In this document: positions 1,224-44,791 of the stretch, one piece after another
How the letters are laid out: each line of letters opens with the position of its first letter
Numbering within the stretch: position 1 is the stretch's first letter
DNA from: Dehalococcoidia bacterium
GTDB taxonomy: Bacteria > Chloroflexota > Dehalococcoidia > Lucifugimonadales > JAGWBF01
Assembly (NCBI GenBank): GCA_034423015.1
Contig: DAOUJG010000063.1
Location: 112,865-176,864 of the forward strand
Direction: 5' to 3'
DNA length: 64,000 nt
Notes under the pieces: model-generated
Told to the model about the DNA's origin: nothing
What the model saw: the letters and a program-made list of their open reading frames with translations, nothing else
Database searches by the model: none
Position numbers and translations under genes: made by a program

Positions 1224-1290
1224 ATGGCACACTCCAGTCTAATGCTGGGTCTCTCTCCGAGGGAAAGAGGGCCCCTACGGGCGCGGACGG
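1224..1290 (-). repeat. 67-bp conserved intergenic spacer, copy 1 (hairpin plus RBS)
   Basis: Near-identical to 2608-2674; ctctttcc/ggagagag stem and GGAG on the minus strand. Confidence 0.85.
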
Positions 1291-2607: not shown

Positions 2608-2674
2608 ATGGCGCACTCCAGTCTAATGCTGGGTCTCTCTCTGAGGGAAAGAGGGCCCCTACGGGCGCGAACGG
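2608..2674 (-). repeat. 67-bp conserved intergenic spacer, copy 2
   Basis: Near-identical to 1224-1290. Confidence 0.85.
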
Positions 2675-12410: not shown

Positions 12411-14183
12411 TTAGCTTGAAGGGCGGGGCCACACCTTCGTTATCGTCTCCGCCAACGCCTCGCTCCGTTGTTTGATGGCGGTTTCATCCCAACGATCGGA
12501 GGCTGAATCCAACACTTCCTTGTTGAGCATCAAAGTGCTAAAGGTATCCAATGCCCGCCGCTTGTCCCCCCATGAACGGTTGGACATCGACGAGTTCAGC
12601 GCTCTTGTTGCTAGGGTCAAGTTACCAATAAGGCCAATATGCTCCTTGCGCAATTCCTCTGCTCGGGCCTCGTCAATGTCTTGGTGAGGGAAAGGCCACC
12701 CATCCGAAGTCCAGCGCTGGGGCATCAAATGCTCTACAGTGAGGTTTGTCGGGACAGCTAGTTGTTCAGTCATGGATGGTCTCTTGCTAAGCTCGATGGT
12801 TTCCAGGATCATCTTACGCCTGGCCGCGTTCCCCGGCATCGGCCTCATGGACAGATAGTCTATTACCTGCTTGTCGTCTGGCCAGGTCCGATTTTCCGCG
12901 GTCTGGCTGACTAGGTAGTCAATAAGCACTTGATTGGCGGGCTCCTGCGTGTGTTGTGCCAAATGACTCACCAGTTCGATGAACAGGGCGTTAAGCCCCT
13001 GAGTACCCAAGTTGCATAGCACCCGCCGGACGAGAAAGCTTTCCACTGCACGAACCGCAGACTGCCGCTCTTGGTCGTTGATGTCCTGGGTGTAAAGCCA
13101 GAGCAGTGGCGGCATGACGACGCTTATTTCCAAGACCTTAAGGCGCTTCAGGATGTCGTCTATTCCCGGTTGTCTGTTTTCTTCGATGTTCTTGTAGACC
13201 ATGCCGACATTCCGCACATCTACGGCCACAGCTTCAATCGTCCGCTCTGTCTCTCCCACATACCTCCTAAAGGCTGCGGCCGTGCGATGCATTTGGACAT
13301 ATTCACGAAGGCGCATGATACACCAGTAGTTGAGGAAGCGGTCCAGTTGTATCTGAAGAACCCGCCCGCGGCTTTCCTCCTGCCTCCACCAGTCGTCTTC
13401 AAACATCCCCCAAAGCGTACGTGCCTTGGTTTCGTCATCAATTAGGTCGGCTTCGTACATCACCGTGTTCTTGATGTAGTCGGCCTGTTTGAGGGGTTCG
13501 CCTCGACTGTTCAGTATCTCAAAGGTGAAGTGGGGTTGGTCTCCCTTGTCCAGCTCTATGGTGGCAACTTTCAGATACTTCTTCACAACGTCGTAGAGCG
13601 CGTGTGCTCGGGCATCGACATGCACCGGATCCTCATTGAGCCAATTCGTTACCCACTCGCGCAGGTGCGAGTAAGCTTCAACTATGGGCCTCGACGGCCG
13701 ATTGGGGCTTAGTCTACCGTTGATAATGTCCTGGAAGTCCGCTTGGTCCAAACGATTTGACTGACGCATCTTCGTGGCATTTAGGTGGTCTCCGCCCGTA
13801 AGCGAATCCCTGTTGAATAGGTAGTCACGGAGGGAAGCGAAGTCCGACGTATCCACCAGTGCCGCCGTAAACGCCCCATCCAGGACCTTGATAAGCAGCT
13901 GCAGAGTCGTCAGGCGCTGCTGGCCATCGACGATCAAGATTGGCTGTACTTCGGAGAGCGGCGCGTCGCTCTCTCGCGGCTGCACGACTATCGCGCCCAT
14001 GAAGTGTAGGCGCACGTCCGATGCGCTCGGTGCCTTCAGCAAATCCTCCGCGACTTTCTGGACGTCGTCCCATAGAGCCTTCCACTCCTCATTCCCCCAG
14101 GCATACGGACGTTGAAATACTGGAATCCGATAGGACACGTCACGGTCAAACAGATCTTTCATGCCCATGATGCTCGCTTCCAT
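12411..14183 (-). CDS. GmrSD-family type IV restriction endonuclease (DUF262 + DUF1524/HNH)
   Basis: IPVFQRPYAW, VDGQQRLTT, FEILNSRG (DUF262); TVEHLMPQ...GNLTL...N...N (DUF1524); AAGGAG RBS. Confidence 0.93.
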   Translation of the reverse strand: MEASIMGMKDLFDRDVSYRIPVFQRPYAWGNEEWKALWDDVQKVAEDLLKAPSASDVRLHFMGAIVVQPRESDAPLSEVQPILIVDGQQRLTTLQLLIKVLDGAFTAALVDTSDFASLRDYLFNRDSLTGGDHLNATKMRQSNRLDQADFQDIINGRLSPNRPSRPIVEAYSHLREWVTNWLNEDPVHVDARAHALYDVVKKYLKVATIELDKGDQPHFTFEILNSRGEPLKQADYIKNTVMYEADLIDDETKARTLWGMFEDDWWRQEESRGRVLQIQLDRFLNYWCIMRLREYVQMHRTAAAFRRYVGETERTIEAVAVDVRNVGMVYKNIEENRQPGIDDILKRLKVLEISVVMPPLLWLYTQDINDQERQSAVRAVESFLVRRVLCNLGTQGLNALFIELVSHLAQHTQEPANQVLIDYLVSQTAENRTWPDDKQVIDYLSMRPMPGNAARRKMILETIELSKRPSMTEQLAVPTNLTVEHLMPQRWTSDGWPFPHQDIDEARAEELRKEHIGLIGNLTLATRALNSSMSNRSWGDKRRALDTFSTLMLNKEVLDSASDRWDETAIKQRSEALAETITKVWPRPSS

Positions 14184-14495: not shown

Positions 14496-15455
14496 CTAGA
14501 CTCCGGACTTTCGATGCAAAGCCTTCGCAGGGACCACCTGGCCGGTGACCTTGATGGCGCCCCCGGTGGGCACGAACCCGGAGAAGAGCTCGGGATGCAG
14601 TATCTCGGCCATGATCTCCAGGCCGTCGATGAGCCGCGGCCCTGACCTGCTGAAGTAGGCGCTGGCATCCACCACGAACACTCTGGATTGCTCCACCGCG
14701 GGGAGAGAGCTCCAGCCCTCCCGCTCGGTGAGCAGGGACACCTCCTGCAGCGCACGCTTGGCGTCGAAGCCGCAGGGAGTGACCAGTATCACCTCGGGAC
14801 GGGCCTCGAGGACCCGTTCCCACTCGATGCGAAACGACGGAGTGTGCTTGTCGCCCAGGACGTCCTCGCCCCCGGACATCTCCACCATCTCGGGCACCCA
14901 GTGCCCGGCCGCCAGCACCGGGTCCATCCACTCGAGGCACGCCACCCGGGGCCTCGTGTCCGCCAGGGCCGCCCTTGCCTCGACCGCCTCCACCCTGCGG
15001 CTCAGGGAGCCGGCGAACCGTTCCGCCTCGTCCCGGGCCCCCGTGGCGTCGCCCACCTTCAACACGTCCCCTATCACGTCGCCCACCGAGCTGGGGTCCA
15101 GGGACAGTATCTCCGGCTTCCTGGCCAGGGTCTCAGTTGCGTCGGCAACCTGCCGCGCGGTTATCGCTCACTCTCCGCATAGCTCCTGGGTGAGGAGCAG
15201 GTCGGGTTCCAGCTTCTCCAGAAGCTCCACGTCGATGTCGTAGATGCCCTTCCCCTCGGTGAGCCGCTCCTCGATGATCCGGTGTATATCGCCGCTGGAG
15301 TAGTCGCCGTCCTGGAAGATGCTGTGCACGATCCAGGGCAGCTTCCGGGCCTCGGGCGGGTAGTCGCACTCGTGGCTCACACCGAGCAGATGGTCGCCCA
15401 GACCCAGGGAGTAGACGATCTCCGTGGCGCTGGGCAGGAAGGAGCAGATGCGCAT
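14496..15455 (-). CDS. BtuF-like (cobalamin-binding-type) protein without signal peptide, 319 aa, in-frame UGA at codon 96 (candidate selenocysteine, CxxU)
   Basis: MRICSFLPSATEI...HECDYP...TQELCGE[TGA]AIT...LEW...PCGF...FSRSGPRL; ORFs 15168-15455 and 14496-15086 share one frame; real stop is TAG. Confidence 0.85.
15134..15152 (-). promoter_or_regulatory. Candidate bacterial SECIS hairpin (BtuF-like gene)
   Basis: CA(G)GUUGC-CGAC-GCAAC-UG at +16 to +34 after the UGA; loop G at +25. Confidence 0.6.
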
Positions 15456-15664
15456 CGGACCTCCTCGCGTCGTCGGCCGGGGCCGGCTACCCGCCATTAT
15501 GCCACGGCAGGGGCCCGATTGGTAGGAGCATGACAATCGACGCCATGCGGCCATCGGGCCTTGCGGGCATCCGGCGTTGTTGGGGCCGCCGCCATGTATG
15601 GTATAGTGTTGGCGGCCCGCCCACCCCGGCTGCAGGCCGGGCGCTCGGCCCAGACCCCTCTCGG

Positions 15665-15709
15665 CCCGACCAGCGTACCCCAGACCGACGTACCCCCGAC
15701 CAACGTACC
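15665..15709 (+). repeat. 3 x 15-bp tandem repeat in the leader of the LVIVD gene
   Basis: cccgaccagcgtacc / ccagaccgacgtacc / cccgaccaacgtacc directly before AAGGAGG. Confidence 0.8.
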
Positions 15710-15717
15710 AAGGAGGA

Positions 15718-16932
15718 GTGATGGCCCAGCAAGGGGAGATACACAACCTCCGTCTGGTGTCCCACAGCGACCTCGGCGGCTTCGGCAACATCGGCGAGGG
15801 CGTGGCCCTTCAGCAGGCCTCCGACGGGCGTCGCGTGCTCTGGCTGGCCCACGAGGGCCCTCCCAAGGACGTGACCGCGGTGGACGTCAGCGACCCGGCC
15901 AACCCCCGGGTGGTCGCCCAGACGGAGCTGCCCCACCAGCAGATCCGGTCCAACTCCCTGGCGGTGGTCGACGACCTGCTCCTGGTGGCCTACCAGGTCT
16001 CGCGGCCTGGGATCTCCGACGCCGGCATGGGCGTGTACGACATCTCCAGACCCGAGGAGCCCAGGCGGGTAAGCTTCTTCGACACCTCGGGGCCCAGCTC
16101 CCGGGGGACCCACTGCCTCTGGTGCGTCGACGGGCAGTACGCCCACCTGAGCACCGGGGCCGCCGACTTCACGCCGACCGACCCCAAGGACGACCAGTTT
16201 CACATGATAGTCGACGTCGGCGACCCGGCCAGGCCTGCGGAGGTGGGCCGCTGGTGGCTGCCGGGCACACGGGAGGGAGACGACGCCCCTCCGCCGGTCC
16301 GCCATCCGGAGCACGACGTGGGCTACCGGGTGCACAACGTCAACGTCTATCCCGGCCGGCCCGACCGGGCATACCTGGGCTACGTGGACGCCGGCATCGT
16401 CATCCTGGACATCGCGGACCTCTCGCGCCCTAGCATGGTCACCCAGCTCGACTATCACCCCCCACTGACGGGGTTCACCCACACCGTGCTGCCCCTGTTC
16501 GACAGGGGTCTGCTGGTGGTGGCGGAGGAGGCCAGCGAGCACGACAACTGCGAGGACTGGCCCAAGGTCGTGTGGGTGGTGGACTCCAGCGTGGAGACCA
16601 ACCTCGTTATGTTGAGCACCCTGCCCACCGACAAGGACAAGTACTGCGCCATCCCGGGGCGGTACGGGGCCCACAACCTCCACGAGAACCTGCCAGTACC
16701 CACCTCCCACGTTTCCGACACCATCGTGTACAGCACCTTCTTCAACGCGGGCCTGCGGATCCACGACATCTCCGACCCCTTCCGTCCCCAGGAGATAGCC
16801 TACTTCGTGCCGCCGGTGCCCGAGGGAGCCCGGGCCAACTCGGTGAACGACGTTTACGTGGACGAGGGGGAGCTGATCTACACCGTGGACCGGATAAAGG
16901 GCGGCCTCTACATCCTGGAGCCGGCCTGGTAG
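15718..16932 (+). CDS. LVIVD-repeat beta-propeller protein
   Basis: Repeated xxxVDVSDP-type motifs; GFTHT and GAHNLHEN; AGLRIHDISDP. Confidence 0.85.
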   Translation: MMAQQGEIHNLRLVSHSDLGGFGNIGEGVALQQASDGRRVLWLAHEGPPKDVTAVDVSDPANPRVVAQTELPHQQIRSNSLAVVDDLLLVAYQVSRPGISDAGMGVYDISRPEEPRRVSFFDTSGPSSRGTHCLWCVDGQYAHLSTGAADFTPTDPKDDQFHMIVDVGDPARPAEVGRWWLPGTREGDDAPPPVRHPEHDVGYRVHNVNVYPGRPDRAYLGYVDAGIVILDIADLSRPSMVTQLDYHPPLTGFTHTVLPLFDRGLLVVAEEASEHDNCEDWPKVVWVVDSSVETNLVMLSTLPTDKDKYCAIPGRYGAHNLHENLPVPTSHVSDTIVYSTFFNAGLRIHDISDPFRPQEIAYFVPPVPEGARANSVNDVYVDEGELIYTVDRIKGGLYILEPAW

Positions 16933-16937
16933 CCGGG

Positions 16938-18143
16938 ATGAGCCCCAAGCGCATAGCCGAGCCCGACCACTTTCCCTGGCTGGACTACCGGCGTTACACC
17001 TTCTCCCTGGGGGTCGAGAAGGCCGGGGTCGTCTTCCTCTCTGGGGAAACGGCCAGCGAGTATGACGCGGCCAGCGACCGGGTGGTATGCCACGGAAACG
17101 TGGTGGATCAAATGCGCCTGGCCTACGAGAAGCTGAGGCTGTCGCTGGAGTCCCTGGGGGGCGGGTTCGACGACGTGGTCAAGACCGTCGACTATGTGGC
17201 GCCGGCCGGCCTCGCCGACTACCGGGGCACGGCCGACGTGCGCCGGGAGCACTTCAAGGGCCGCTGGCCCGCCTCCACGGGCATCATCGTGGAGCGCCTG
17301 CTGCGGTCAGACGCCCTGATCGAGGTGGACGCCGTGGCCGTCCTGGGCCACGAAAAGGAGCCCGTGGACCCCGGCTGGCCCCGTTACCAACGGCTGACCT
17401 ACGCTCCCGGCGTCAAAGCCGGAGACCTGCTCTGCGTCTCCGGGTTCACCGGGGCCATCGAGGACGCCGACGGGCAGCGCAGGTACCCGGGCTCCCCCGC
17501 CGAGCAGACCGCCGCCGCCCACGACTCCATCGGCCAGGTGCTGCACGCGGCGGGAGCGGGACCCGGGGACGTGGGGAAGTCCCTGGACTACATCACCCCC
17601 GCCTGCCTGGAGGGATACGCCGACACCGGGGAGGCCAGACACCAGTTCCCCAAGGACCGGCTGCCGGCCTCGACGGGCGTGGGCGTCAACCGCCTGCTCC
17701 ACCCCGAGGCGCTAATCGAGGTCGAGGCCACGGCCGTGCTCGGAGCGCCCCGTCAGGAGATCGAGGTGCCCGGCTGGCTTGCCCCGGACGGGCCGCCGGC
17801 CCCAGCCGCCGTCCGCCAGGGGCGGTTCCTGTTCATCTCGGGGCAGACGGCGGTGGACCACAGGACGGGGGACGTCGTCGGGGAGGGGGACGTCCTGGCC
17901 CAGACCACCCAGGCATACAGCAACCTGAAAGCCGTGCTGGAGGCCGCGGGCGGGTCCATGGCGGACGTGGTGAAGACCACGGAGCTCATCACTCCACCGG
18001 GCCTGAGGGGGTACCGGGGCGTGGGAGACATACGGCGGAGGTTCTTCGGCGATGAGTTCCCCGCGGCCACCGGCGTGGTGGTCAGCTCCCTGCTGCGGCC
18101 CGAGCTGCTCATCCAGGTGGACGCCACGGCCATTCTCGACTAG
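16938..18143 (+). CDS. Triple-domain Rid (YjgF/YER057c/UK114) family protein
   Basis: Three copies of (F/C)xSG...DVxK...PA(S/A)T...V..LL....LIEV.A; start ATG 16938. Confidence 0.85.
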   Translation: MSPKRIAEPDHFPWLDYRRYTFSLGVEKAGVVFLSGETASEYDAASDRVVCHGNVVDQMRLAYEKLRLSLESLGGGFDDVVKTVDYVAPAGLADYRGTADVRREHFKGRWPASTGIIVERLLRSDALIEVDAVAVLGHEKEPVDPGWPRYQRLTYAPGVKAGDLLCVSGFTGAIEDADGQRRYPGSPAEQTAAAHDSIGQVLHAAGAGPGDVGKSLDYITPACLEGYADTGEARHQFPKDRLPASTGVGVNRLLHPEALIEVEATAVLGAPRQEIEVPGWLAPDGPPAPAAVRQGRFLFISGQTAVDHRTGDVVGEGDVLAQTTQAYSNLKAVLEAAGGSMADVVKTTELITPPGLRGYRGVGDIRRRFFGDEFPAATGVVVSSLLRPELLIQVDATAILD

Positions 18144-18178
18144 GGAGCCAGCATGACGACGCCCGGAGGACCAGGCCT

Positions 18179-19177
18179 ATGAACACCGGGGCGGCACTGA
18201 CCCCCGACATCAAGGCCCTGATAGGACGGGAGTGGGTCTACCACGCGCCCGAGGAGATCGGGGCGGCCTCCATCCGCAAGTTCGCCCTTTCCATCGGGGA
18301 CTCGAACCCCGTCTATTCCGACGGGGCCTACGCCTCCGGCACGTCTTACGGGGGAATTATCGCGCCGCCCACCTTCGTGTGCGAGACGATGCAGTACATG
18401 GTCGGCGCGCTGGACGAGGCAGGGGGCCCCGCCGCGCGAGTCCAGCTTCCCCTGGGCCTGGAGATCCGCGGCTCCAACGACTACCACTTTCACCAGGCCC
18501 TGCGCCCCGACGACCTGCTCACCGTCCGTTGGAGGGTGGCCGACATCCGGGAGCGGGACGGCAGCACGGGGAAGCTGCTCATCGTCACCTCGGAGATCAG
18601 CTACTGGAACCAGCACGGGGCGCTGCTGGCCACCAACACCGAGACGAACCTGTTCCGCGTGTCGGATGCCCCGTTGCGGGCCGGCCCGGCAGCCCCGCCG
18701 GAGGCCTCCTCCACAGGGGAGGGTCCAGGAAGCTCGACGCCTCCCCGCCGCCTGGACCGGCCCCTCTCGTTCAGGGACGTAGGAGACGGAGACCCGCTGG
18801 CGGAGCTGGAAAAGCGGGTCAGCCTGCCTATGATGGTCTTTTACGCCGCGGCCACGTGGGACTTCCACCGGTACCACTACGACCTGGAATACGTGCGGCA
18901 GAAGGGGTTCGACCGCCCCTTCGTGGACGGCCAGATGCTGGGGGCCTTCCTGGGCCAGATGCTGTCCGACTGGACGGGTGACCCGGGGACCATACGCCGG
19001 CTGGGCTTCCGCTTCAGGGAGTTCGCCTTCCCCGGGGATACCCTCACCTGCAGGGGACGGGTGACCGGGACCGAGGCTGGTGAACGGGGAGGCTCGGTGA
19101 CCTGCGAGCTGTCCATCGTGCGGCAGGACGGCGCGCTGGTGCTGGGGCCGGGGCACGCGGTATTGGCGCTGCCCTGA
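18179..19177 (+). CDS. Double hotdog-fold MaoC-like dehydratase
   Basis: IRKFA.SIGDSNPVY...IIAPPTF N-domain; WDFHRYHYD...PFVDGQM C-domain. Confidence 0.85.
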   Translation: MNTGAALTPDIKALIGREWVYHAPEEIGAASIRKFALSIGDSNPVYSDGAYASGTSYGGIIAPPTFVCETMQYMVGALDEAGGPAARVQLPLGLEIRGSNDYHFHQALRPDDLLTVRWRVADIRERDGSTGKLLIVTSEISYWNQHGALLATNTETNLFRVSDAPLRAGPAAPPEASSTGEGPGSSTPPRRLDRPLSFRDVGDGDPLAELEKRVSLPMMVFYAAATWDFHRYHYDLEYVRQKGFDRPFVDGQMLGAFLGQMLSDWTGDPGTIRRLGFRFREFAFPGDTLTCRGRVTGTEAGERGGSVTCELSIVRQDGALVLGPGHAVLALP

Positions 19178-19208
19178 GGCGGCGCCTTTTTCTATGCGGC
19201 GCTTTTTT

Positions 19209-20960
19209 CTATAACAAGGGGCCGCCGCGCCGCGACCGCCTGAGCAGGTCCGTGGCTTCCACGTCCACCGCCAGCCCGTCGACGACCACCGCATAGTCCC
19301 GCCGGGCGCCCTCCACCGTCACCTTTTCGTTCAGCACGTCGTCGAGCACCAGGGCCGGGTCCCGCTCCAGGGGGTCTCCGAAGCCTCCGCCGCCGCCGGA
19401 GACGATGGTGACCACGTCCGAGGCGTCCACGGGGATGAACGCCCCCTCCCTGGGCAGCTCCTGGGACTCGGACCCGTCGAGGTTGCGCACGATGCGCGTG
19501 AGCGTGCCGTCGCTGGCCCCCAGAAGGCCGGGCCCGGGGACCTTGTGCCGGTTGGAGTGGGTCCCCACGTAGGTGTCCACCAGCATCCGGTAGTCCTTCC
19601 GAATCCCCACACCGCCCCTGAACCGCCCGGCCCCCGCCGAGTCGGGTATGTACTCCAGGCGGTCGGCCATCATGGGGAACTCCAGCTCCATGGCCTCTAT
19701 GGGCAGGTTGGACGCAGTGTGCACACCCTCTATGCCGTCCTTGACGGGCCTGGCCCCACCGCCGCCGGCCAGCGTCTCGTAGTAGATGAAGGTGGGCGGC
19801 CCCTGGCTGCTGAAGCCCATTCCGTGAACGCCGTGACTGCCGGCCTCCAGGTTGGAGTCGGTGGCCGCCCTGTCGCTGGAACCGCCGAGGGCGGCGAAGA
19901 GCAGGTCCGGAAGCTGGGAGCACACCTCGAACCGCGCCCCCACCGGGGAGGGGGGCCTCGGATTGAGGATGGACCCCTCGGGGATGATCATCTCGATGGG
20001 CCTCCAGAACCCGTCGTTGCCCAGGGCGCTGGGGTCCAGCAGGGAGCGCAGCACCCAATAGGCGCAGGCGGCCGTCCCCGAGTAGGGGTTGTTGAGGCCC
20101 CACCTGGTGGGCCCGCCGGTGCCGGTGTAGTCCAGGGTGATGGTGGGCTGGGGTTCGTGCTTTACCGTGACCTTCACCCTCATGGGAATGGGCTCGTCGC
20201 TGTCCAGGTCGTCATCCAGGTAGTCCACGGCCTCGTAGACGCCCTCCCGCAACCGCCGGATACCCTCGCGCACCTTGGTCTCGGAGACCCGGAGCAGCTC
20301 GTCCATGCCCGAGCGCAGCACGTCGATGCCGTACCGCCGGGCCAGCTCCTGCATCCGGCGAACGCCCACCTGGACCGAGCCCACCTGGGCACGAATGTCC
20401 CCATCCCGGCCGTCGGGGTCCCGCACGTTGAGCAGGACCACCTCCAGCACCTCCCGTTGGAGCTCTCCGGCCCTGTACATGCGGATGGGCGGGTACCGGA
20501 TGGCCTCCTGGTATATCTCGGTGGCGTCGCCCAAGGCGCACTGGCCCGGAGCCTTGCCTCCCACGTCGGGCCAGTGGCCGGTGTTTCCCACGAAGCCCAA
20601 GAGCTCGCCGCCGTGGAACACGGGACCCACGAAGGTCACGTCGGCCAGGTGCGATGGGCCGCCGCTGTAGGGGTCGTTGACCATGAACACGTCGCCTTCC
20701 CGGATGGACTCCCTGGGGAACCGCTCCAGGATGGCGGACCCGGTGAACATGAAGGAGCTCATGTGTACGGGCTGGCTGATGTCCCCGATGCAGACGATGC
20801 GACCGTCGGCGTCCAGTATGACGCTGGAGCAGTCCTGCCGCTCCTTGATGTTGGTGGAGTACGCGGACTTTATCAGCGCCGCCAGGATCTCGTCGGCGAT
20901 GGATACCAGGGCGTTGCCCAGGACCTCGGTGGTCACGGGGTTCAGTCTAGCGCCGGCCAT
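19209..20960 (-). CDS. Hydantoinase B/5-oxoprolinase beta-subunit family protein
   Basis: AYSTNIKERQDCS, NDPYSGGPSHLAD, HWPDVGG, GGGGFGDPLER; start ATG 20960. Confidence 0.92.
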   Translation of the reverse strand: MAGARLNPVTTEVLGNALVSIADEILAALIKSAYSTNIKERQDCSSVILDADGRIVCIGDISQPVHMSSFMFTGSAILERFPRESIREGDVFMVNDPYSGGPSHLADVTFVGPVFHGGELLGFVGNTGHWPDVGGKAPGQCALGDATEIYQEAIRYPPIRMYRAGELQREVLEVVLLNVRDPDGRDGDIRAQVGSVQVGVRRMQELARRYGIDVLRSGMDELLRVSETKVREGIRRLREGVYEAVDYLDDDLDSDEPIPMRVKVTVKHEPQPTITLDYTGTGGPTRWGLNNPYSGTAACAYWVLRSLLDPSALGNDGFWRPIEMIIPEGSILNPRPPSPVGARFEVCSQLPDLLFAALGGSSDRAATDSNLEAGSHGVHGMGFSSQGPPTFIYYETLAGGGGARPVKDGIEGVHTASNLPIEAMELEFPMMADRLEYIPDSAGAGRFRGGVGIRKDYRMLVDTYVGTHSNRHKVPGPGLLGASDGTLTRIVRNLDGSESQELPREGAFIPVDASDVVTIVSGGGGGFGDPLERDPALVLDDVLNEKVTVEGARRDYAVVVDGLAVDVEATDLLRRSRRGGPLL

Positions 20961-21027
20961 CGGCACCTCCTTTAGTGGGTCGGGCGTGGGTCCGGCAGCG
21001 TAGCCGGCGGCAGGGACCGGGCCGCGC

Positions 21028-22482
21028 CTACGGGCGGCTGATCTCGTGCCCGCCCCGGGCGTAGGAGGCGGTGTTGGGGTCGCCCGCCAGGAACTCGCCG
21101 CGGCCCTTGGTGCCCACGACCTCGTCGTTCTCAATGACCACGTGGCCCCGGGACATGGTCAGGTCGGGCATGCCCAGCAGCTTGAAGCCGTCGAAGGCCG
21201 AGTGGTCGGTGTTGCCGTGCTGGCCGTCCACCACGTGCACCCTGGCCGGGTCCCAGATCACCAGGTCGGCGTCGGACCCCGGGTTGAGGCAGCCCTTCTT
21301 GGGATAGAGACCGAAGAGCTTGGCGGGGTTCTCGCAGAACACCTGCACCAACCTGGGCAGCGTGATGCGGCCCCTGTTCACCCCGTAGCTCCAGACCACG
21401 GGCACCATGAACTCGATGGTGTTCAGGCCGTAGCGGCCCTCGAAGATGTTCTCCCCCGTGGCCCCCGCGGGCGTGTCCTTCAGGGTGGCGTCCATGCCGC
21501 CGGTCAGCTTCTGGCGCTTGTTGGTGCCGCCGGAATCGCTGGCGATGGTGTCGATGGTGCCGTCGGCCAGGGCGGCCCACAGGGCCTCGCAGTCATCCGC
21601 CTCACGCAGGGGCGGGCCTACCTTGCCTATGGGCCCCTTGGTCAGCACCTCGTCGTTGGTCAGGGTCAGGTAGTGGGGGCAGGTCTCGGCGAACATTTTG
21701 AGGCCCTCACCCTTGTACCGGCGCACCACGGCCATGGCCTCTTTGGTGCTGAGGTGCACCGGGTAGAGGGGGCAGTCCAGCACCTGGGAGAACACGGCCG
21801 ACCGGTTCACTCCCTCGGCCTCCAGTATGTTGGGCTGGGAGCGGAGGAAGTAGGGGGGCGAGGTGTTCCCCTCGGCGGTGTACTGGTCTATCAGGAAGTC
21901 GATGCATGGCCCGTTCTCGGCGTGGACCATGGCCATGCCCCCGTCCTTGGAGGCCAGGTCCATGATGCGGATCATGTTGTCCTCGGGGATCTCCATGCCC
22001 CGGCGCCGGTAGGCCAGGAACATCTTGAAGGAGATGACGCCCATGCGGATGATCTCCCCCACGGACTTGTTGAAGCTCTCCCCGTCCGCCGGCGTGTAGG
22101 TGCCGTGGATGGCGTAGTCCAGGTAGGAGAGCTTCTCGGCCTCGTCGATGAACTGCTTGATGACGTCCGACGTGTAGCCTTCGAACCCCCAGGACCTGAC
22201 GTTGCCCACGAAGGCGATGACGGTGGTTATGCCCCCGTAGGCGGCGGTGATGGAGTAGTCGTCCATCTTGTCGTTGTACACCGGATGGCAATGGGAGTCG
22301 ATGGCCCCGGGGAGCACGTACTTGCCGGTGGCGTCGATTACCCTGCCGGCCTCCCGCGACGGGTCGTCGGTGAGCTCCACGACCTTGCCTTCGCTGATGA
22401 CCACGTCCCGGCGGGTGATGTCCTGGCCGGTGACCAGCATCCCTCCCCTGACTATCACGTCGGCCCTGGTACTGGTTGTCAT
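21028..22482 (-). CDS. Dihydropyrimidinase/hydantoinase-like cyclic amidohydrolase
   Basis: PGAIDSHCH, FKMF (carbamylated Lys), VHAENG, VHLS, ETCPHYL, ASD, NPAKLFG. Confidence 0.9.
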   Translation of the reverse strand: MTTSTRADVIVRGGMLVTGQDITRRDVVISEGKVVELTDDPSREAGRVIDATGKYVLPGAIDSHCHPVYNDKMDDYSITAAYGGITTVIAFVGNVRSWGFEGYTSDVIKQFIDEAEKLSYLDYAIHGTYTPADGESFNKSVGEIIRMGVISFKMFLAYRRRGMEIPEDNMIRIMDLASKDGGMAMVHAENGPCIDFLIDQYTAEGNTSPPYFLRSQPNILEAEGVNRSAVFSQVLDCPLYPVHLSTKEAMAVVRRYKGEGLKMFAETCPHYLTLTNDEVLTKGPIGKVGPPLREADDCEALWAALADGTIDTIASDSGGTNKRQKLTGGMDATLKDTPAGATGENIFEGRYGLNTIEFMVPVVWSYGVNRGRITLPRLVQVFCENPAKLFGLYPKKGCLNPGSDADLVIWDPARVHVVDGQHGNTDHSAFDGFKLLGMPDLTMSRGHVVIENDEVVGTKGRGEFLAGDPNTASYARGGHEISRP

Positions 22483-22504
22483 GGCATATTCTCGCTTTCA
22501 GGCA

Positions 22505-22568
22505 GTTTTGTTGGGCAGCCGTTTTGCTGGACAGCCGGTTCGCTGAACAGCCGGGGCGCTGGACAGAA
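22505..22568 (-). repeat. 4 x 16-bp tandem repeat in the leader of the amidohydrolase gene
   Basis: gttttgttgggcagcc / gttttgctggacagcc / ggttcgctgaacagcc / ggggcgctggacagaa, beside an extended -10 (TGcTACATT, minus strand). Confidence 0.8.
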
Positions 22569-22604
22569 TGTAGCACGTGAGGCGGGCTGGTTCAAGGGGA
22601 CGGG

Positions 22605-23906
22605 CTAGTCAGCCACCGCCACCTGCCCGCCTATTGTCGGCCGCGGCTCCCGCATGTAGTAGACCAGCGCCGCGGAGATGGTGAGCAGGACAAGGTTCGA
22701 CCATATGGCGATGTCGTAGGTCCCCCGCCAGTCGTAGAGGACCCCGCCGAGGTAGGCGCCCAGACCGGAGCCCAGGGGCATGACGCCGAACATGGTGCCG
22801 TATATGGTGGCCAGGTTGGACACGCCGAACCTATCCGAAGCGTAGGCCGCGGTGATCCCGATGACGGCGTTCCACGACGAGCCCACCAGCATGATGCCGA
22901 TGAGGAGCGCGGCCAGCCCCAGGGACGGGATTCCCATGAAGGAGATGCCCATGGACAGGAGGACTATTACGAACCCAAGGGCCCGGAGCTCGTAGGAGAA
23001 GGCGAGAAGGAACTTGCGGCTCCTGGAGCGGTCGGACAGGTGTCCCAGTATGAGGGTCCCGACTATGGCCCAGAGTCCGATGAGGCTGAAGCCGGCCGCT
23101 CCCACCATGGGATGGTAGCCGAGGTCCTGGGCGTAGGAGACGAAGTGAGCATTCACGAAGCTCATGGAGTACCCTCAGACGAAGTAGCCGAAGGTCAGCC
23201 TCCAGAAGAACCCCGTGCGCAGCGCCTCGCCGAAGGTGGCGTCAGGCCCAGCTTCCACCGCAGGGTTGGCGGGCTCGGAGGACGGGGAAGGCTCCGCCCG
23301 GCGGGGCGCAAGCCCCACGTCGCTGGGACGGTTCTTGACGAACAGCAGCCCCACCGGCAGGACCACGGCCAGCAGGAGCACCCCCAGGAAGAGGTACGCC
23401 TCCCTCCAGTCGAAAAGCACGACGAAGCTGGAAGCGGCGGGCACCAGTACGATGGCGCCGATGGAGCCGCCGCCGGTGATGAGACCCAAAGTAAGGCCCC
23501 GGTTGGTATGGAACCAGGCGCTTACTATCTTGGTGAGAGTCGATCCTGTCCCCAGGGTGAGGCCGACGCTCATCACGGCGAAGATGACGTACAGTTGGGC
23601 CAGGTTGCTTGTGAGGGGCAGGAGCAGGAGCATGATGCCCATCAGCACCACGCCCGACAGGGCCACCACCTTTGGGCTGTACCGGTCGGCCAGGAACCCG
23701 GCCACGGGACGCAGCAGGCCCGACAACATGAAGGTGGTCCCGAAGGCCAGGGAGAGGGTCGCCCTGCTCCACTCGAACTCCTCGGTCATGGGTTTCAGGA
23801 ACACGCCGAAGGAGAACTGCGTGCCGGTCATGCCCATGGCTATCAGCGCGCCGCCGATGACGACGAACCAGCCGTAGAAGATGTTGGTGCGCCCTACAAT
23901 CCTCAT
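22605..23906 (-). CDS. MFS transporter, 433 aa, in-frame UGA at codon 244 (candidate selenocysteine)
   Basis: N-half ...FFWRLTFGYFV[TGA]GYSMSFVNAHF... continues in frame into the C-half; the two ORFs are the two 6-TM halves of one MFS; real stop is TAG. Confidence 0.85.
23146..23164 (-). promoter_or_regulatory. Candidate bacterial SECIS hairpin (MFS gene)
   Basis: UGAGCUU-CGUG-AA(U)GCUCA at +11 to +29 after the UGA; GU in the apical loop. Confidence 0.55.
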
Positions 23907-25731: not shown

Positions 25732-27483
25732 TCAGACGTTCCCCGTGCTCCCGGCCAGCCTCTTCCTCAGCCGGGCCGTGGCCCGCTCGTCCACAGCGCC
25801 GTCTTTCACGACCACCCCGTACACCTCTTTAGCCGCTTCCGGGGATATCCGGTCGTCCACCAGGTCCGCCAGGACCAGGGACGGCTCCCGGAGCAGGGGG
25901 TCGCCGAAGCCGCCGCCGCCGGCTGTCCGCACGCTGACCACGTCCCCCGCCTGCAGGTGAATGCCCGCGGTCACGGCCCTCACGGACCGCTCCCCGGGCG
26001 TATCCGGGTTTATGACGAAGGCGCTGGGGGAGCCGCTCAGGCCTCCCTCCAGGCCCTCCGCCGGATGGGTCTCCCGGTCGGCGGTGGTCGACAGGATGGT
26101 GTCCTCGGCCAGAACGCGGGTGTCCCGCCGGATGGGCATGCCCCCGCGGAAGCTGCCCGGGCCGCCGCCGTCCCGCAGGAGCTCGTACCGGAGCACCTGC
26201 AGCGGGTACGCCAGCTCCATGCTCTCCACCGGCAGGTTGGCGGAGCCCGAGGCGTGGATGCGGACGGCATCGGTGCCGTCCCGGGTGCGCCGGGCTCCCA
26301 GGGCTCCGGCGAAGGTCTCGTAGTCCACCCACGGCTGGTCGGAGCCAGGCAGCGTGCCCCCGTAGGTGCACAGGGAGTGGGGCCCCGAGGGAGCCAGGGA
26401 CTTCTCGGGCATCGCCTGGACCAGCGCGCCCACAACGACGTCGCCCAGGATGCCGCAGCTCGTCGCCCGGGCGCCCACCGCCGCGGGGGGCACCGGGTTC
26501 ACCAGGCACCCTTCGGGCGCGACGACGCGGACGGGCTTGTAGGTGCCCGAGTTGGGGGGCAGGTCAGGGTCCAGGAGCATCTTGAGGACGAAGTACACGA
26601 CGGACAGGGTGGCGACCATGGGGACGTTCTTGCCGCTGTCCATCTGGGGGTCCGTGCCGGTGAAATCGAACTCCACCACACCGTCCTTCACGGTGGCGGC
26701 GCACTCGATGCGCACCGGGGTGTCCTGAAAGCCATCGCTGTCCAGGTAGTCGACGAACCTGTAGGTGCCCTCCTTCAGCCTCCCGATGAGGCGGCGCATC
26801 CGCCTCTCGCTGTAGTCCAGGAAGTGCTCGACGCAATCCAGCATGGTGCCGGCGCCGTACCGCTCGCACACCTGGTGGACGCCCCGGACCCCAACGTGGA
26901 GGGCCGCCATCTGGGCCTGCAGGTCCCCCAGGCGCTCCTCGGGCGTGCGGCTGTTGGACATGATGATCTGGGTGACACCGTCGTCCTCTCCCAGCTCGGG
27001 GTACACCCGCACGGGAGGCAGGCGGATGCCCTCCTCGTATATGGTCTTGCACGCCGCCGACTCGCTGCCCGGCACCATGCCGCCCACGTCGGCGTGGTGG
27101 GCTATGTCGGCGACGAAGGCCACCAGGGAGTCCTCATAGAACACCGGGGAGACGGCGGTGATGTCGGGCAGGTGGGCGCCCCCGCCACGGTAGGGGTCGT
27201 TGGCCAGGAACATGTCGCCGGGTTTCAGTTTGTCCTTGGGAAACCTCTTCAGCACCTCGTCGATCAACCCCACCATGGAGCCCAGGTGCATGGGCACGAA
27301 GGGCGCCTGGGCGATGATCTGGCCCTCGGGCCCGAATATGCAGGTGGAGCAGTCTCTCCGCTCGCGGATGTTGGGAGAGTGGGACGCCGTGATCATGGCG
27401 AGCCCCAGCTCGTCGGACACGGACAGGAGCAGGTTCGCGACCACCTCGGCCAGGATCGGGTCTACTTCCGTCTTGGTGCTCAA
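25732..27483 (-). CDS. Hydantoinase B/5-oxoprolinase beta-subunit family protein
   Basis: SHSPNIRERRDCS, PMHLGSM, NDPYRGGGAHLPD, HHADVGG. Confidence 0.93.
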   Translation of the reverse strand: MSTKTEVDPILAEVVANLLLSVSDELGLAMITASHSPNIRERRDCSTCIFGPEGQIIAQAPFVPMHLGSMVGLIDEVLKRFPKDKLKPGDMFLANDPYRGGGAHLPDITAVSPVFYEDSLVAFVADIAHHADVGGMVPGSESAACKTIYEEGIRLPPVRVYPELGEDDGVTQIIMSNSRTPEERLGDLQAQMAALHVGVRGVHQVCERYGAGTMLDCVEHFLDYSERRMRRLIGRLKEGTYRFVDYLDSDGFQDTPVRIECAATVKDGVVEFDFTGTDPQMDSGKNVPMVATLSVVYFVLKMLLDPDLPPNSGTYKPVRVVAPEGCLVNPVPPAAVGARATSCGILGDVVVGALVQAMPEKSLAPSGPHSLCTYGGTLPGSDQPWVDYETFAGALGARRTRDGTDAVRIHASGSANLPVESMELAYPLQVLRYELLRDGGGPGSFRGGMPIRRDTRVLAEDTILSTTADRETHPAEGLEGGLSGSPSAFVINPDTPGERSVRAVTAGIHLQAGDVVSVRTAGGGGFGDPLLREPSLVLADLVDDRISPEAAKEVYGVVVKDGAVDERATARLRKRLAGSTGNV

Positions 27484-27492
27484 CCGTTCCCC

Positions 27493-35516: not shown

Positions 35517-36269
35517 CTACTGGGCGGTGTAGCCGCCGTCCACGGCCAGCTCCGCGCCCGTGATGTAGGAGGCCTCGTCCGACGCCAGGAACAGGACGGC
35601 GTTGGCGACCTCCTCCTGGCGGCCCCGCCTGCGCATGGGGGTACCGTCGATCACCAGCCGCTCCTCGTCGTCGGAGTAGGCGGGTTGGTTCATCATGGGG
35701 GGCATGAACCCGGGGTGGACTGAGTTGACCCGGACGCCCTCCTGGGCGTGGCGGACGGCCATGGCCTTGGTGAACAGCCTGACCGCGCCCTTGGAGGCGT
35801 GGTAGGCGCCGTGCCCGAAGGGGTTGCCTACCAGCCCCATGATGGACGATATGTTGACGATGGAGCCACCGCCCGCCTCGATCATGTGGGGGACCGCGTG
35901 AATGGTGCCCAGGTACACGCCCTTGGCGTTGATGTCCATGATGCGGTCCCACCCGTCGACACTGGAGGAGTCGGGGTAGAGGCGACTGCTGATGCCGGCG
36001 TTGTTCACCAGGATGTCCAGCTTGCCGAACCTCTCCACCGTCTTCGACACCACCGTCTTCCAGTCCTGTTCGCTGGTCACGTCCATGGGCAGGAACATCG
36101 CTTCGCCCCCGGCCTCGGCGATCTCCGCCTCCACCTGCCGGCCCTCGGCCTCCAGGACGTCGCCGATCACCACCCTGGCCCCTTCCCGCACGAACATCCT
36201 GGCTTCCACCGCGCCCATGCCGTGGGCCCCTCCGGTGATTATGGCAACCTTGCCCTCGAGTCTCATCAC
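35517..36269 (-). CDS. SDR family oxidoreductase
   Basis: TGGAHGMG, NNAGI, YHASK. Confidence 0.95.
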   Translation of the reverse strand: MMRLEGKVAIITGGAHGMGAVEARMFVREGARVVIGDVLEAEGRQVEAEIAEAGGEAMFLPMDVTSEQDWKTVVSKTVERFGKLDILVNNAGISSRLYPDSSSVDGWDRIMDINAKGVYLGTIHAVPHMIEAGGGSIVNISSIMGLVGNPFGHGAYHASKGAVRLFTKAMAVRHAQEGVRVNSVHPGFMPPMMNQPAYSDDEERLVIDGTPMRRRGRQEEVANAVLFLASDEASYITGAELAVDGGYTAQ

Positions 36270-44733: not shown

Positions 44734-44791
44734 TCGCTAGGTATCCCGGCGAGTCCGACCCCCGCATCCTTCGATGCGACAGGAGACGGGA

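What the first reader, a model, noticed from the sequence alone, without database searches (positions are those of the whole stretch)
14496..23906. Two UGA-for-Cys genes within 9.5 kb share a SECIS architecture and bracket two catabolic operons
Seen: both hairpins have a 7-bp stem with one bulged base and a 4-nt loop starting CG (CGAC, CGUG), and both genes use TAG as their true stop. Between them lie the LVIVD-Rid x3-MaoC operon and the amidohydrolase-hydantoinase B operon, each with a tandem-repeat leader. Inference: a lineage-specific SECIS consensus and a possible selenium-dependent uptake/handling module tied to breakdown of an unknown cyclic amide or organosulfur compound. Two independent Cys-position UGAs with similar hairpins would be unlikely if both were random nonsense mutations.
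Basis: inference. Interest (0 to 1): 0.75.

Follow-up and report, generated by a model that had tools for sequence, protein, structure and literature searches.

The report
Two selenoprotein genes; one new MFS family
Both in-frame UGA codons are very probably genuine selenocysteine codons in a Dehalococcoidia (Chloroflexota) genome: the BtuF-like binding protein belongs to an already catalogued selenoprotein family, whereas the membrane transporter (MFS) represents a widespread selenoprotein family that I could not find in current catalogues.

Summary
Both in-frame TGAs are real and conserved. MFS transporter (22605-23906, minus): 83 of 83 related loci, from Dehalococcoidia/SAR202 MAGs, carry TGA at this codon. 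None has TAA, TAG or Cys. Database homologues are all annotated as two half-proteins. The nearest full-length homologues (28-39% identity) have a near-invariant Cys there (F-x-C-G, mid TM7). Synonymous variation collapses over the hairpin UGAGCUU-CGUG-AA(U)GCUCA. BtuF-like protein (14496-15455, minus): the TGA replaces the second Cys of a CxxC motif, giving CxxU. It is kept in its own clade (seven related loci fetched) and in a second, about 55%-identical clade.

The conserved element is GCGCGGC(A)-GGU-(U)GCCG(A)CGC. With that correction, both loops place G22-U23 at the same distance from UGA and fit the general bacterial SECIS model, so the SECIS is not lineage-specific.

Known selenoprotein genes in related genomes (AhpD-like, UGSC, rhodanese, DUF3179) have similar hairpins.

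Synteny with the amidohydrolase/HyuB and LVIVD/Rid/MaoC genes holds only in close relatives, so a selenium-dependent catabolic module is not supported.

BtuF CxxU is already listed in a 2026 review. No MFS selenoprotein is listed there or in the other papers I could search. Selenium incorporation itself is untested.

The parts
22605..23906 (-). MFS transporter gene (433 codons, OFA/monocarboxylate-like) with one in-frame UGA; true stop TAG
   Evidence: Pfam MFS_1 E=1e-41. Best NCBIfam match is SfMCT/OFA, below cutoff. 83 of 83 related loci read through in frame.
23175..23177 (-). UGA = selenocysteine codon 244 of the MFS, in the motif GYFV-U-GYSMSF, mid TM7
   Evidence: TGA in 83 of 83 related loci (84 of 84 with the window), never TAA, TAG or TGY. 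The nearest full-length homologues have a near-invariant Cys here (A5).
23146..23164 (-). MFS SECIS hairpin UGAGCUU-CGUG-AA(U)GCUCA; the stem starts 11 nt after the UGA codon; loop G22-U23 counted from the U of UGA
   Evidence: 98.9% paired in 79 sequences. L022 and L055 switch AGC to UCG with compensating changes. Synonymous entropy is about 0 bits at codons +5 to +9, against 1.1-1.9 bits elsewhere. The same core occurs in L168, a member only 43% identical in the C-terminal half.
14496..15455 (-). BtuF-like (Peripla_BP_2) gene, 319 codons, no signal peptide, RBS GAGGAGG, one in-frame UGA, stop TAG. The longer ORF reaching 15791 is not coding.
   Evidence: Pfam PF01497 E=7e-23. Homologues all start at MRI(C/V)S. 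RBS seen.
15168..15170 (-). UGA = selenocysteine codon 96, motif LCGE-U-A (CxxU)
   Evidence: Aligns with the second Cys of LCxVCA in homologues 50-60% identical. TGA is kept in seven related loci and in a second clade (ICEV-U-A, 9 loci). Codon counts over 91 homologue loci: TGC 58, TGT 13, TGA 16.
15139..15158 (-). Binding-protein SECIS hairpin GCGCGGC(A)-GGU-(U)GCCG(A)CGC (bulged A; loop G21-G22-U23)
   Evidence: This is the MFE structure, -12.2 kcal/mol. It lies inside a 29-nt block that is invariant in relatives. 100% paired in 13 distinct sequences, and pair 15:30 occurs as G:C, U:A and U:G.
15134..15152 (-).
   Evidence: 75.8% paired, the same as shuffled controls. Synonymous sites on its 3' arm vary freely.
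21028..22482 (-). Amidohydrolase gene, downstream of the MFS on the same strand
   Evidence: Pfam Amidohydro_1
19209..20960 (-). Hydantoinase B/oxoprolinase gene (start ATG at 20960)
   Evidence: Pfam PF02538 E=3e-147; start codon
15718..19177 (+). LVIVD-repeat protein (15718-16932), triple-Rid fusion (16938-18143) and MaoC/FAS1-type dehydratase (18179-19177)
   Evidence: Pfam; start codon
22505..22566 (-). 16-nt tandem repeat (about 3.4 copies) in the amidohydrolase leader; a recent expansion
   Evidence: TRF. Single copy in L001, L086 and L004.
15668..15709 (+). 15-nt tandem repeat (2.8 copies) just before the LVIVD RBS; specific to the window
   Evidence: TRF. Single copy in relatives.

Best explanation
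Both genes are selenoprotein genes of a Dehalococcoidia bacterium.

Mechanism (inferred from the established bacterial pathway, not shown here): during translation, a hairpin whose 5' arm begins 10-13 nt after the UGA presents a small apical loop containing G-U, 22-23 nt from the U of UGA. The Sec-specific elongation factor SelB would bind this loop and deliver Sec-tRNA(Sec) to the UGA, so the ribosome inserts selenocysteine and continues to the real TAG stop.

MFS transporter: Sec replaces a Cys that is nearly invariant in the wider subfamily (F-x-C-G). It lies in the middle of cavity-lining helix TM7, about 10 residues to the cytoplasmic side of the conserved His that forms the proton site in the homologue SfMCT. 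It therefore most likely takes part in substrate or proton handling inside the translocation pathway. This role is inference.

BtuF-like protein: Sec is the second residue of a CxxC-type motif (CxxU) in a cytoplasmic protein. It most likely forms a redox-active or ligand-binding selenylsulfide pair at the inter-lobe cleft. This is also inference.

The two genes are independent selenoproteins that happen to lie in one catabolic gene cluster in this lineage. They are not a dedicated selenium module.
For: MFS transporter:
- TGA in 83 of 83 related loci from the Dehalococcoidia/SAR202 MAG set, with the frame intact on both sides.
- All top-120 database hits to either half are half-length proteins that end or start exactly at this codon.
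- An exhaustive HMMER search shows a gap between this family (at least 60% identity) and the nearest full-length homologues (42% or less). Those have a near-invariant Cys at the position.
- Codons +1 to +3 (GGN UAY UCN) vary only at third positions, so they are translated. Codons +5 to +9 are frozen (AGC 79/84, UUC 84/84, GUG 84/84, GCU 82/84), exactly over the hairpin.
- L022 and L055 show compensatory changes.
- L168, 43% identical in the C-terminal half, keeps the UGA and the same hairpin.

Binding protein:
- CxxU aligns with CxxC.
- TGA plus an invariant 29 nt in relatives 80-91% identical.
- A second Sec clade has the same hairpin core and a covarying pair.

Lineage:
- Unannotated AhpD-like (TIGR01926, 130 bits), UGSC (NF041046, 153 bits), rhodanese and DUF3179 genes with UGA at the known Sec positions and similar hairpins occur in the related loci.
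- BSepDB, whose entries come from species with the Sec pathway, lists the genome of L013 with 46 selenoprotein genes.
- TGA is still an ordinary stop in 10 of 38 window genes.
Against: - No selA, selB, selC or selD gene and no tRNA-Sec is in the window or in the fetched loci, so the machinery of this particular genome was not seen directly.
- The MFS hairpin alone is weak (-5.8 kcal/mol). Thermodynamic z-scores are not significant.
- Chance hairpins follow 3-7% of TGAs, including a clear nonsense mutation in L085.
- Covariation in both hairpins rests on few sequences. Most of the support is conservation.
- There is no protein-level evidence of selenium.
- The proposed roles of Sec in both proteins are inference.
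Confidence: 0.9

Rival explanations
1. The MFS is a genuinely split transporter. Translation terminates at UGA and re-initiates at the AUG 9 nt downstream (UGAGG resembles a Shine-Dalgarno site), giving two six-helix halves that assemble.
For: AUG is invariant four codons after the UGA, and UGAGG is invariant. Gene callers annotate two ORFs everywhere.
Against: - The 9-nt 'spacer' evolves as codons (GGN, UAY, UCN/ACN) and encodes G-Y-S/T, which matches C-G-F/Y-T-M in unsplit Cys homologues. The Gly and Met are protein constraints.
- The stop is TGA in 84 of 84 sequences, although TAG is the preferred stop of this genome.
- The frame is never shifted.
- The frozen synonymous sites lie downstream of the AUG, over a hairpin, not over an initiation region.
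- The lineage is rich in selenoproteins.
Confidence: 0.04
2. One or both TGAs are nonsense mutations or assembly errors, that is, pseudogenes.
For: Such events do occur in these MAGs: TGG to TGA in the LVIVD gene of L085 and a frameshift in the MFS of L004.
Against: The same codon is TGA across the whole family: 83 related MFS loci, and 16 TGA loci in two clades of the binding protein. Both flanks are under purifying selection and Cys is found in homologues. The genuine nonsense case replaces Trp and is seen in one genome only.
Confidence: 0.01
3. The UGA is read through by another mechanism (near-cognate Trp or Cys tRNA, or a local code change) and not as selenocysteine.
For: Selenium incorporation was not shown. 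The Sec machinery of this genome was not seen.
Against: UGA aligns with Cys in both families, which is the signature of Sec/Cys pairs. Hairpins have the SelB-type G-U loop at canonical spacing. TGA terminates 10 of 38 genes. Known Sec families behave the same way in related genomes.
Confidence: 0.03
4. One reading: the two selenoproteins and the enclosed operons form one selenium-dependent uptake and catabolic module.
For: The whole arrangement is kept in relatives with 78-95% identical MFS (L001-L005, L085, L086).
Against: - Beyond that clade, the Sec-MFS sits among variable neighbours. The commonest neighbour, a luciferase-like monooxygenase, is present in only 22 of 82 loci.
- Transposase or toxin-antitoxin genes interrupt the cluster in L001, L004, L005 and L085.
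- The amidohydrolase has its own conserved promoter-like site.
- The binding protein is cytoplasmic, has no ABC partners nearby, and is transcribed divergently.
Confidence: 0.1

Closest known systems
Cobalamin-binding protein BtuF selenoprotein family (cd01144, CxxU), listed as 'predicted with high confidence' in the 2026 review PMC13188914, Table 1 (source given there: Peng et al. 2016)
   Same: Same domain family (Peripla_BP_2/BtuF; NCBI names the Cys homologues 'cobalamin-binding protein'). Same CxxU motif and a single Sec.
   Different: I could not fetch the representative MDE0719563.1, so identity with that family is inferred from the domain and the motif. The window protein belongs to a small LCGE-U-A clade, distinct from the ICEV-U-A clade found in JGI metagenomes.
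SfMCT, L-lactate/H+ symporter of Syntrophobacter fumaroxidans (PDB 6G9X/6HCL), SLC16/OFA-type MFS
   Same: Best solved homologue (E=3e-25) and best NCBIfam match. TM7 shares the motif YF(x)CG...H...D, including His250 and Asp257 of the SfMCT proton site.
   Different: About 25-30% identity. SfMCT has Cys, not Sec. The NCBIfam score of 158 is below the cutoff of 320, so the substrate cannot be transferred. The role of the TM7 Cys was not addressed in that paper.
Other predicted Sec-containing transport proteins: YeeE/YedE family, MerT-like, P-type ATPase, SaoP permease, SO_0444 efflux protein (PMC13188914, Table 1)
   Same: Integral membrane transport proteins with a predicted Sec in or near the translocation path.
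   Different: None of them is an MFS secondary carrier. Most are linked to metal or metalloid handling. No such context is seen here.
General bacterial SECIS (bSECIS) model, as in E. coli fdhF
   Same: A hairpin directly after the UGA, inside the coding sequence; a small apical loop with G followed by G or U; spacing of 16-17 nt. From my memory of the fdhF element, its essential G23-U24 sit one nucleotide further from the UGA than G22-U23 here.
   Different: The bulge is on the 3' arm. From memory, fdhF has a bulged U on the 5' arm. The MFS stem is short and A/U-rich.

Membership tests
Bacterial selenoprotein gene (MFS transporter) | In-frame UGA conserved among orthologues, with an intact reading frame on both sides | tested here: met
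   83 of 83 related loci have TGA; 84 of 84 with the window
Bacterial selenoprotein gene (MFS transporter) | Cys-containing homologues with Cys aligned to the UGA | tested here: met
   24 nearest full-length homologues: Cys in at least 90% (A5). Paralogues in the loci have Cys, Ser, Thr or Ala.
Bacterial selenoprotein gene (MFS transporter) | [quoted passage not shown] | tested here: met
   Loop CGUG, 7 bp with one bulge, 17-nt spacing; conserved, with frozen synonymous sites
Bacterial selenoprotein gene (MFS transporter) | bSECIS free energy of -7.5 kcal/mol or lower | tested here: inconclusive
   -5.8 kcal/mol for the hairpin region alone. -10.5 kcal/mol for 48 nt, but that includes a lower stem that is not conserved.
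Bacterial selenoprotein gene (BtuF-like protein) | Conserved in-frame UGA, Cys homologues, and a bSECIS meeting all four model constraints | tested here: met
   (TGA in 16 loci, Cys in 71). Hairpin -12.2 kcal/mol, loop GGU/AGGUN, spacing 16-17 nt, 100% paired.
Bacterial selenoprotein gene (both) | The host encodes selA, selB, selC (tRNA-Sec) and selD | not tested
   None of these is in the window or the loci, and whole genomes could not be scanned. Indirect support: four known Sec families carry UGA in related genomes, and BSepDB lists the genome of L013 with 46 selenoprotein genes.
Bacterial selenoprotein gene (both) | Selenium demonstrated in the protein (75Se labelling or mass spectrometry) | not testable with these tools
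   Requires an experiment
BtuF CxxU selenoprotein family (review PMC13188914) | BtuF/cd01144-type domain with Sec as the second residue of CxxU | tested here: met
   PF01497; weak matches to the BtuF NCBIfam models; motif LCGE-U. Direct comparison with MDE0719563.1 was not possible.
Periplasmic ABC-transporter substrate-binding protein (functional BtuF) | Signal peptide or lipobox, and adjacent permease and ATPase genes | tested here: not met
   The protein and all homologues start directly at beta-strand 1 (MRICSFLPSATEI). No ABC transporter genes are among the neighbours.
SfMCT / L-lactate MFS transporter (NF049980) | Score above the curated cutoff (320 bits) | tested here: not met
   158 bits. 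Related fold and TM7 motifs only.

The most novel reading that the evidence does not exclude
The MFS gene represents a selenoprotein family that is absent from current catalogues. It would be the first major-facilitator secondary transporter with selenocysteine, fixed as Sec in every close relative found (83 related loci, more than 300 database fragments). The Sec sits mid-membrane in the cavity-lining helix TM7. A selenolate inside a translocation pathway could mean direct chemical participation in transport, for example coupling or binding of a soft or redox-active substrate. A more speculative extension is that termination at UGA followed by re-initiation at the conserved downstream AUG yields a two-piece, Sec-free transporter when selenium is scarce.
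Probability: 0.6. Interest if true: 0.7.

Novelty: new member of a known kind. Interest (0 to 1): 0.6.

Why it matters
- Annotation. The MFS family is annotated in public data as two unrelated half-length 'MFS transporter' proteins, in at least 80 species-level Dehalococcoidia/SAR202 genomes. These are abundant degraders of recalcitrant organic matter in the deep ocean and in groundwater. Recognising the gene as one selenoprotein corrects the annotation and adds a family to a catalogue of about 119 prokaryotic selenoprotein families.
- Biochemistry. It places selenocysteine inside the transport pathway of a secondary carrier, where a mechanistic role can be tested by comparing U244C and U244S variants.
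- Method. The binding-protein result is confirmatory, but it shows how a plausible hairpin drawn from one sequence can be the wrong one.
- Interpretation. The analysis warns against reading function from gene order that holds only among close relatives.

Tried and rejected
- Rfam, gathering and permissive thresholds: no SECIS or other relevant RNA family.
- ARAGORN on the window and all loci: no tRNA-Sec.
- Thermodynamic z-scores of the hairpins: not significant in this GC-rich sequence, so not used as evidence.
- Neighbourhood clustering of 82 MFS loci: no conserved partner gene.
- AlphaFold model of the MFS: abandoned. MAFFT aligned the C-terminal halves onto the N-terminal half because of the internal MFS symmetry, and the tool returns no coordinates from which to judge cavity exposure.
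The two elements share only generic bSECIS features, and whole genomes were not available to scan. I used a descriptor scan with background rates and known selenoprotein families as positive controls instead.
- P0418 as a candidate for a further Sec clade: it is only cut by a contig end, so it is uninformative.
- The metagenome scan found no close relatives of the window's binding protein. It did reveal the second Sec clade.
- Literature searches for an MFS selenoprotein returned nothing. Haft & Tolstoy 2025 (PMC12013261) was not available.


Full report
**What is at the coordinates**

The window is about 67% G+C. Two minus-strand genes each contain a single in-frame TGA.

- Gene 1 (14496-15455) is a Peripla_BP_2/BtuF-like protein of 319 codons (Pfam E=7e-23). 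The ORF lister splits it at 15168-15170. The long N-terminal extension up to 15791 is not coding. All homologues start at MRI(C/V)S, and a GAGGAGG ribosome-binding site precedes that ATG.
- Gene 2 (22605-23906) is an MFS_1 transporter of 433 codons, split at 23175-23177. Its best NCBIfam matches, all below cutoff, are SfMCT/L-lactate and oxalate/formate transporters.
- Between them lie LVIVD, a single protein with three Rid domains, and MaoC on the plus strand, and amidohydrolase and hydantoinase B on the minus strand.
- Both interrupted genes end in TAG. TAG is also the commonest stop in the window (24 of 38 genes; TGA 10; TAA 4). TGA therefore still works as an ordinary stop, and the TAG endings are not special.
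- A systematic scan for in-frame TGAs flanked by coding-like sequence found only these two credible cases in the window.

**The MFS transporter**

- Every one of the 120 best database hits to the full protein (59-100% identity) is an N-terminal half of about 245 residues ending exactly at ...LTFGYFV.
- Every one of the 120 best hits to the C-terminal part is a fragment of about 184 residues starting at the Met four codons after the TGA.
- A scan of one genome per species returned 80 loci. Nearly all are labelled Dehalococcoidia, SAR202 or Chloroflexota MAGs. One short contig is labelled Pseudomonadales, which is probably a binning error.
- In 83 of 83 related loci the codon is TGA and the frame continues. 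It is never TAA, TAG or a Cys codon.
- An exhaustive HMMER search of 1.84 billion representative proteins shows a gap between this family (at least 60% identity) and the nearest full-length homologues (42% or less). In 24 of those homologues the aligned residue is a near-invariant Cys in the motif F-(V/A)-C-G-(F/Y)-T.
- A much more divergent member (L168, 43% identical in the C-terminal half) still has the TGA and the same downstream sequence.

**The RNA element of the MFS gene**

It is 98.9% paired in 79 distinct sequences.
- Covariation is limited. In L022 and L055 the Ser codon AGC becomes UCG, and the opposite arm changes from AAUGCU to AACGC(A/G). This keeps seven pairs with a shifted bulge.
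- The stronger evidence is codon-level conservation. Codons +1 to +3 (GGN, UAY, UCN) show normal synonymous variation, so they are translated. Codons +5 to +9 are almost frozen: AGC 79/84, UUC 84/84, GUG 84/84 and GCU 82/84, although GCU is otherwise a rare Ala codon here. Comparable four-fold sites elsewhere carry 1.1-1.9 bits of entropy.
- This pattern also argues against the main rival, a split transporter with termination at UGA and re-initiation at the AUG 9 nt downstream. The 'spacer' evolves as codons. It matches C-G-F/Y-T-M in unsplit homologues. The stop is TGA every time, in a genome that prefers TAG.

**The BtuF-like protein**

- Full-length homologues (50-60% identity; NC10, Tectimicrobiota, SAR202 and others) carry L-C-x-V-C-A. 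The TGA aligns with the second Cys, giving CxxU.
- The closest relatives (77-89% identity) are annotated only as C-terminal fragments. Their contigs show the same TGA, an intact frame, and 29 identical nucleotides after it, while flanking synonymous sites vary.
- A metagenome scan found a second Sec clade (ICEV-U-A, nine loci, 52-57% identical). Across 91 homologue loci the codon is TGC 58, TGT 13 and TGA 16.
Its 3' arm lies on synonymous sites that change without regard to pairing, and it is 75.8% paired, the same as shuffled controls.
- The minimum-free-energy structure is a different, overlapping hairpin: GCGCGGC(A)-GGU-(U)GCCG(A)CGC, at -12.2 kcal/mol. It is 100% paired in 13 distinct sequences. 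One pair occurs as G:C, U:A and U:G, and no shuffle reaches the observed score.

**Do the two share an architecture, and is it lineage-specific?**

- With the corrected hairpin, both loops place G22-U23 (counted from the U of UGA) in a small apical loop. Both stems have 6-8 pairs and a single bulged base on the 3' arm.
- This fits the general bacterial SECIS model quoted in the 2026 review: a 3-9 nt loop with G followed by G or U in its first positions, a stem of at least 4 bp, and 16-37 nt spacing.
- The energy criterion of that model (-7.5 kcal/mol or lower) is met by the binding-protein element. It is borderline for the MFS element.
- As positive controls, I scanned the roughly 1.7 Mb of related loci for in-frame TGAs with such hairpins. 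This recovered unannotated genes of four known selenoprotein families, each with the TGA at the known Sec position: AhpD-like/TIGR01926 (CxxU), UGSC/NF041046, rhodanese (UxxG) and DUF3179 (UxxC). Their hairpins start 13-17 nt from the U of UGA and have G-U at positions 21-26.
- One caveat applies: my scan required a GU in the loop, so that shared feature is partly built in. Family membership and Sec position are independent of the scan.
- As a negative control, the LVIVD gene of L085 has TGG (Trp) changed to TGA in one genome only, and it is also followed by a chance 10-bp hairpin.
- Background rates: 7.1% of all TGA trinucleotides in the window have a qualifying hairpin of at least 6 bp, 3.3% one of at least 7 bp, and 1 of 10 true-stop TGAs has one.
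- The architecture is therefore shared but generic. A hairpin alone would not have been decisive.

**Sec machinery**

No selA, selB, selC or selD gene is in the window or the loci, and whole genomes could not be scanned. Indirect support is good. The known families above carry UGA in related genomes. BSepDB, whose entries come from species with the Sec pathway, lists the genome of L013 (which carries the Sec-MFS) with 46 selenoprotein genes, and another Dehalococcoidia genome with 49.

**Gene neighbourhood**

- The order MFS, amidohydrolase, HyuB / MaoC, Rid x3, LVIVD / binding protein is kept in L001-L005, L085 and L086, where the MFS is 78-95% identical. It is sometimes interrupted by transposase or toxin-antitoxin genes.
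- In about 75 other genomes (60-71% identity) the Sec-MFS has variable neighbours. The commonest, a luciferase-like monooxygenase, is present in 22 of 82 loci.
- A conserved promoter-like TTGAAC-N17-TACATT separates the MFS from the amidohydrolase.
- The leader tandem repeats are single-copy in most relatives.
- The binding protein has no signal peptide and no ABC partner genes nearby.
- I therefore reject a dedicated selenium-dependent module. The window is a typical SAR202-type catabolic region, with several hydantoinase A/B pairs, luciferase-like monooxygenases, FAA hydrolase, SDRs, and a second MFS that has Ala at the equivalent position.

**How it most likely works**

- Shown: the conserved UGA, the Sec/Cys pairing, and selection on the hairpins.
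- Inferred from the established bacterial pathway: SelB binds the G-U loop and delivers Sec-tRNA(Sec) to the UGA.
- Inferred for the MFS: Sec244 lies mid-TM7. In the solved homologue SfMCT, TM7 lines the central cavity. Its His250 and Asp257 form the proton site and align with H254 and D261 here. Sec therefore lies about 10 residues deeper, near the level of the substrate site. The near-invariance of Cys in the subfamily suggests a role in substrate or proton handling.
- Inferred for the binding protein: a CxxU redox or ligand-binding pair in a cytoplasmic BtuF-like fold.

**Comparison with what is known**

- The 2026 review of prokaryotic selenoproteomes lists 119 families. [quoted passage not shown]
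- No MFS or major-facilitator entry is in that table, in the deep-Sep paper, in the BSepDB text or in the GOS study. Full-text searches combining selenocysteine or selenoprotein with MFS terms found nothing relevant.
- NCBIfam has no model for it, and NCBI records name the two halves separately as 'MFS transporter'.
- I therefore rate the MFS as a probable new selenoprotein family that uses the ordinary mechanism. The caveat is that one relevant paper (PMC12013261) and the databases themselves could not be inspected.

**Verdict**

The core inference, two genuine Sec codons, is right. The 'lineage-specific SECIS' and 'selenium module' inferences are not supported. Interest is moderate to high because of the MFS family.

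Noticed in passing
window, 38 called genes: Stop-codon usage is TAG 24, TGA 10, TAA 4. TAG dominance is unusual for a 67% G+C genome, where TGA normally prevails. It might relate to heavy use of UGA for Sec in this lineage.
   Followed up: partly
window 12411-14183 (-): A GmrSD-type (type IV) restriction endonuclease gene lies in a 55% G+C island directly downstream of the binding-protein gene. Relatives L085-L087 have a LON_substr_bdg gene at that place, which suggests a recent insertion.
   Followed up: partly
MFS codon -1 (window 23178-23180) and 83 related loci: The Val codon before the UGA is GUU, GUC or GUA but never GUG (0 of 84), although GUG is the commonest Val codon at other aligned positions of the same genes. 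This may be a context constraint on the Sec codon.
   Followed up: no
L012:3764(+), L020:20358(-), L074:12835(-), L018:2122(-), L078:17948(+), L020:7781(-), L045:2563(-), L049:12126(-): Genes of known selenoprotein families (AhpD-like, UGSC, rhodanese, DUF3179) with in-frame TGA and SECIS-like hairpins occur in Dehalococcoidia MAGs.
   Followed up: yes
L085:8540-8542 and L004 about 345: The LVIVD gene of L085 has TGG (Trp) changed to TGA. The MFS of L004 has a frameshift about 25 codons after the Sec codon. These are assembly errors or gene decay in those MAGs.
   Followed up: partly
L168:445-447 (JGI 3300048637): A far more divergent MFS (43% identical in the C-terminal half) keeps the UGA and the identical hairpin core AUGAGCUUCGUGAAUGCUCAC. 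Other half-length fragments about 40% identical (P0388, P0392, P0396) may be further Sec clades.
   Followed up: partly
window 22483-22604 and 15456-15717: Conserved promoter-like motifs (TTGAAC-N17-TACATT before the amidohydrolase; TATAGT before LVIVD) are shared with relatives. The adjacent 15-16-nt tandem repeats are recent expansions, seen only in the window and, for the amidohydrolase leader, in L005.
   Followed up: partly
window 15-2616 (-), 4529-6895 (+): Two tandem leucine-rich-repeat proteins and a hybrid GAF-PAS-histidine kinase-receiver-OmpR-type regulator.
   Followed up: no
window 25732-29580 (-), 44774-46546 (+), 36266-37576 (-): Further hydantoinase A/B paralogues. A second, unsplit MFS (29% identical) has Ala at the position equivalent to Sec.
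   Followed up: partly
L032 and L035 (both from OZ240220.1): One genome carries two copies of the Sec-MFS about 127 kb apart, both with TGA.
   Followed up: no
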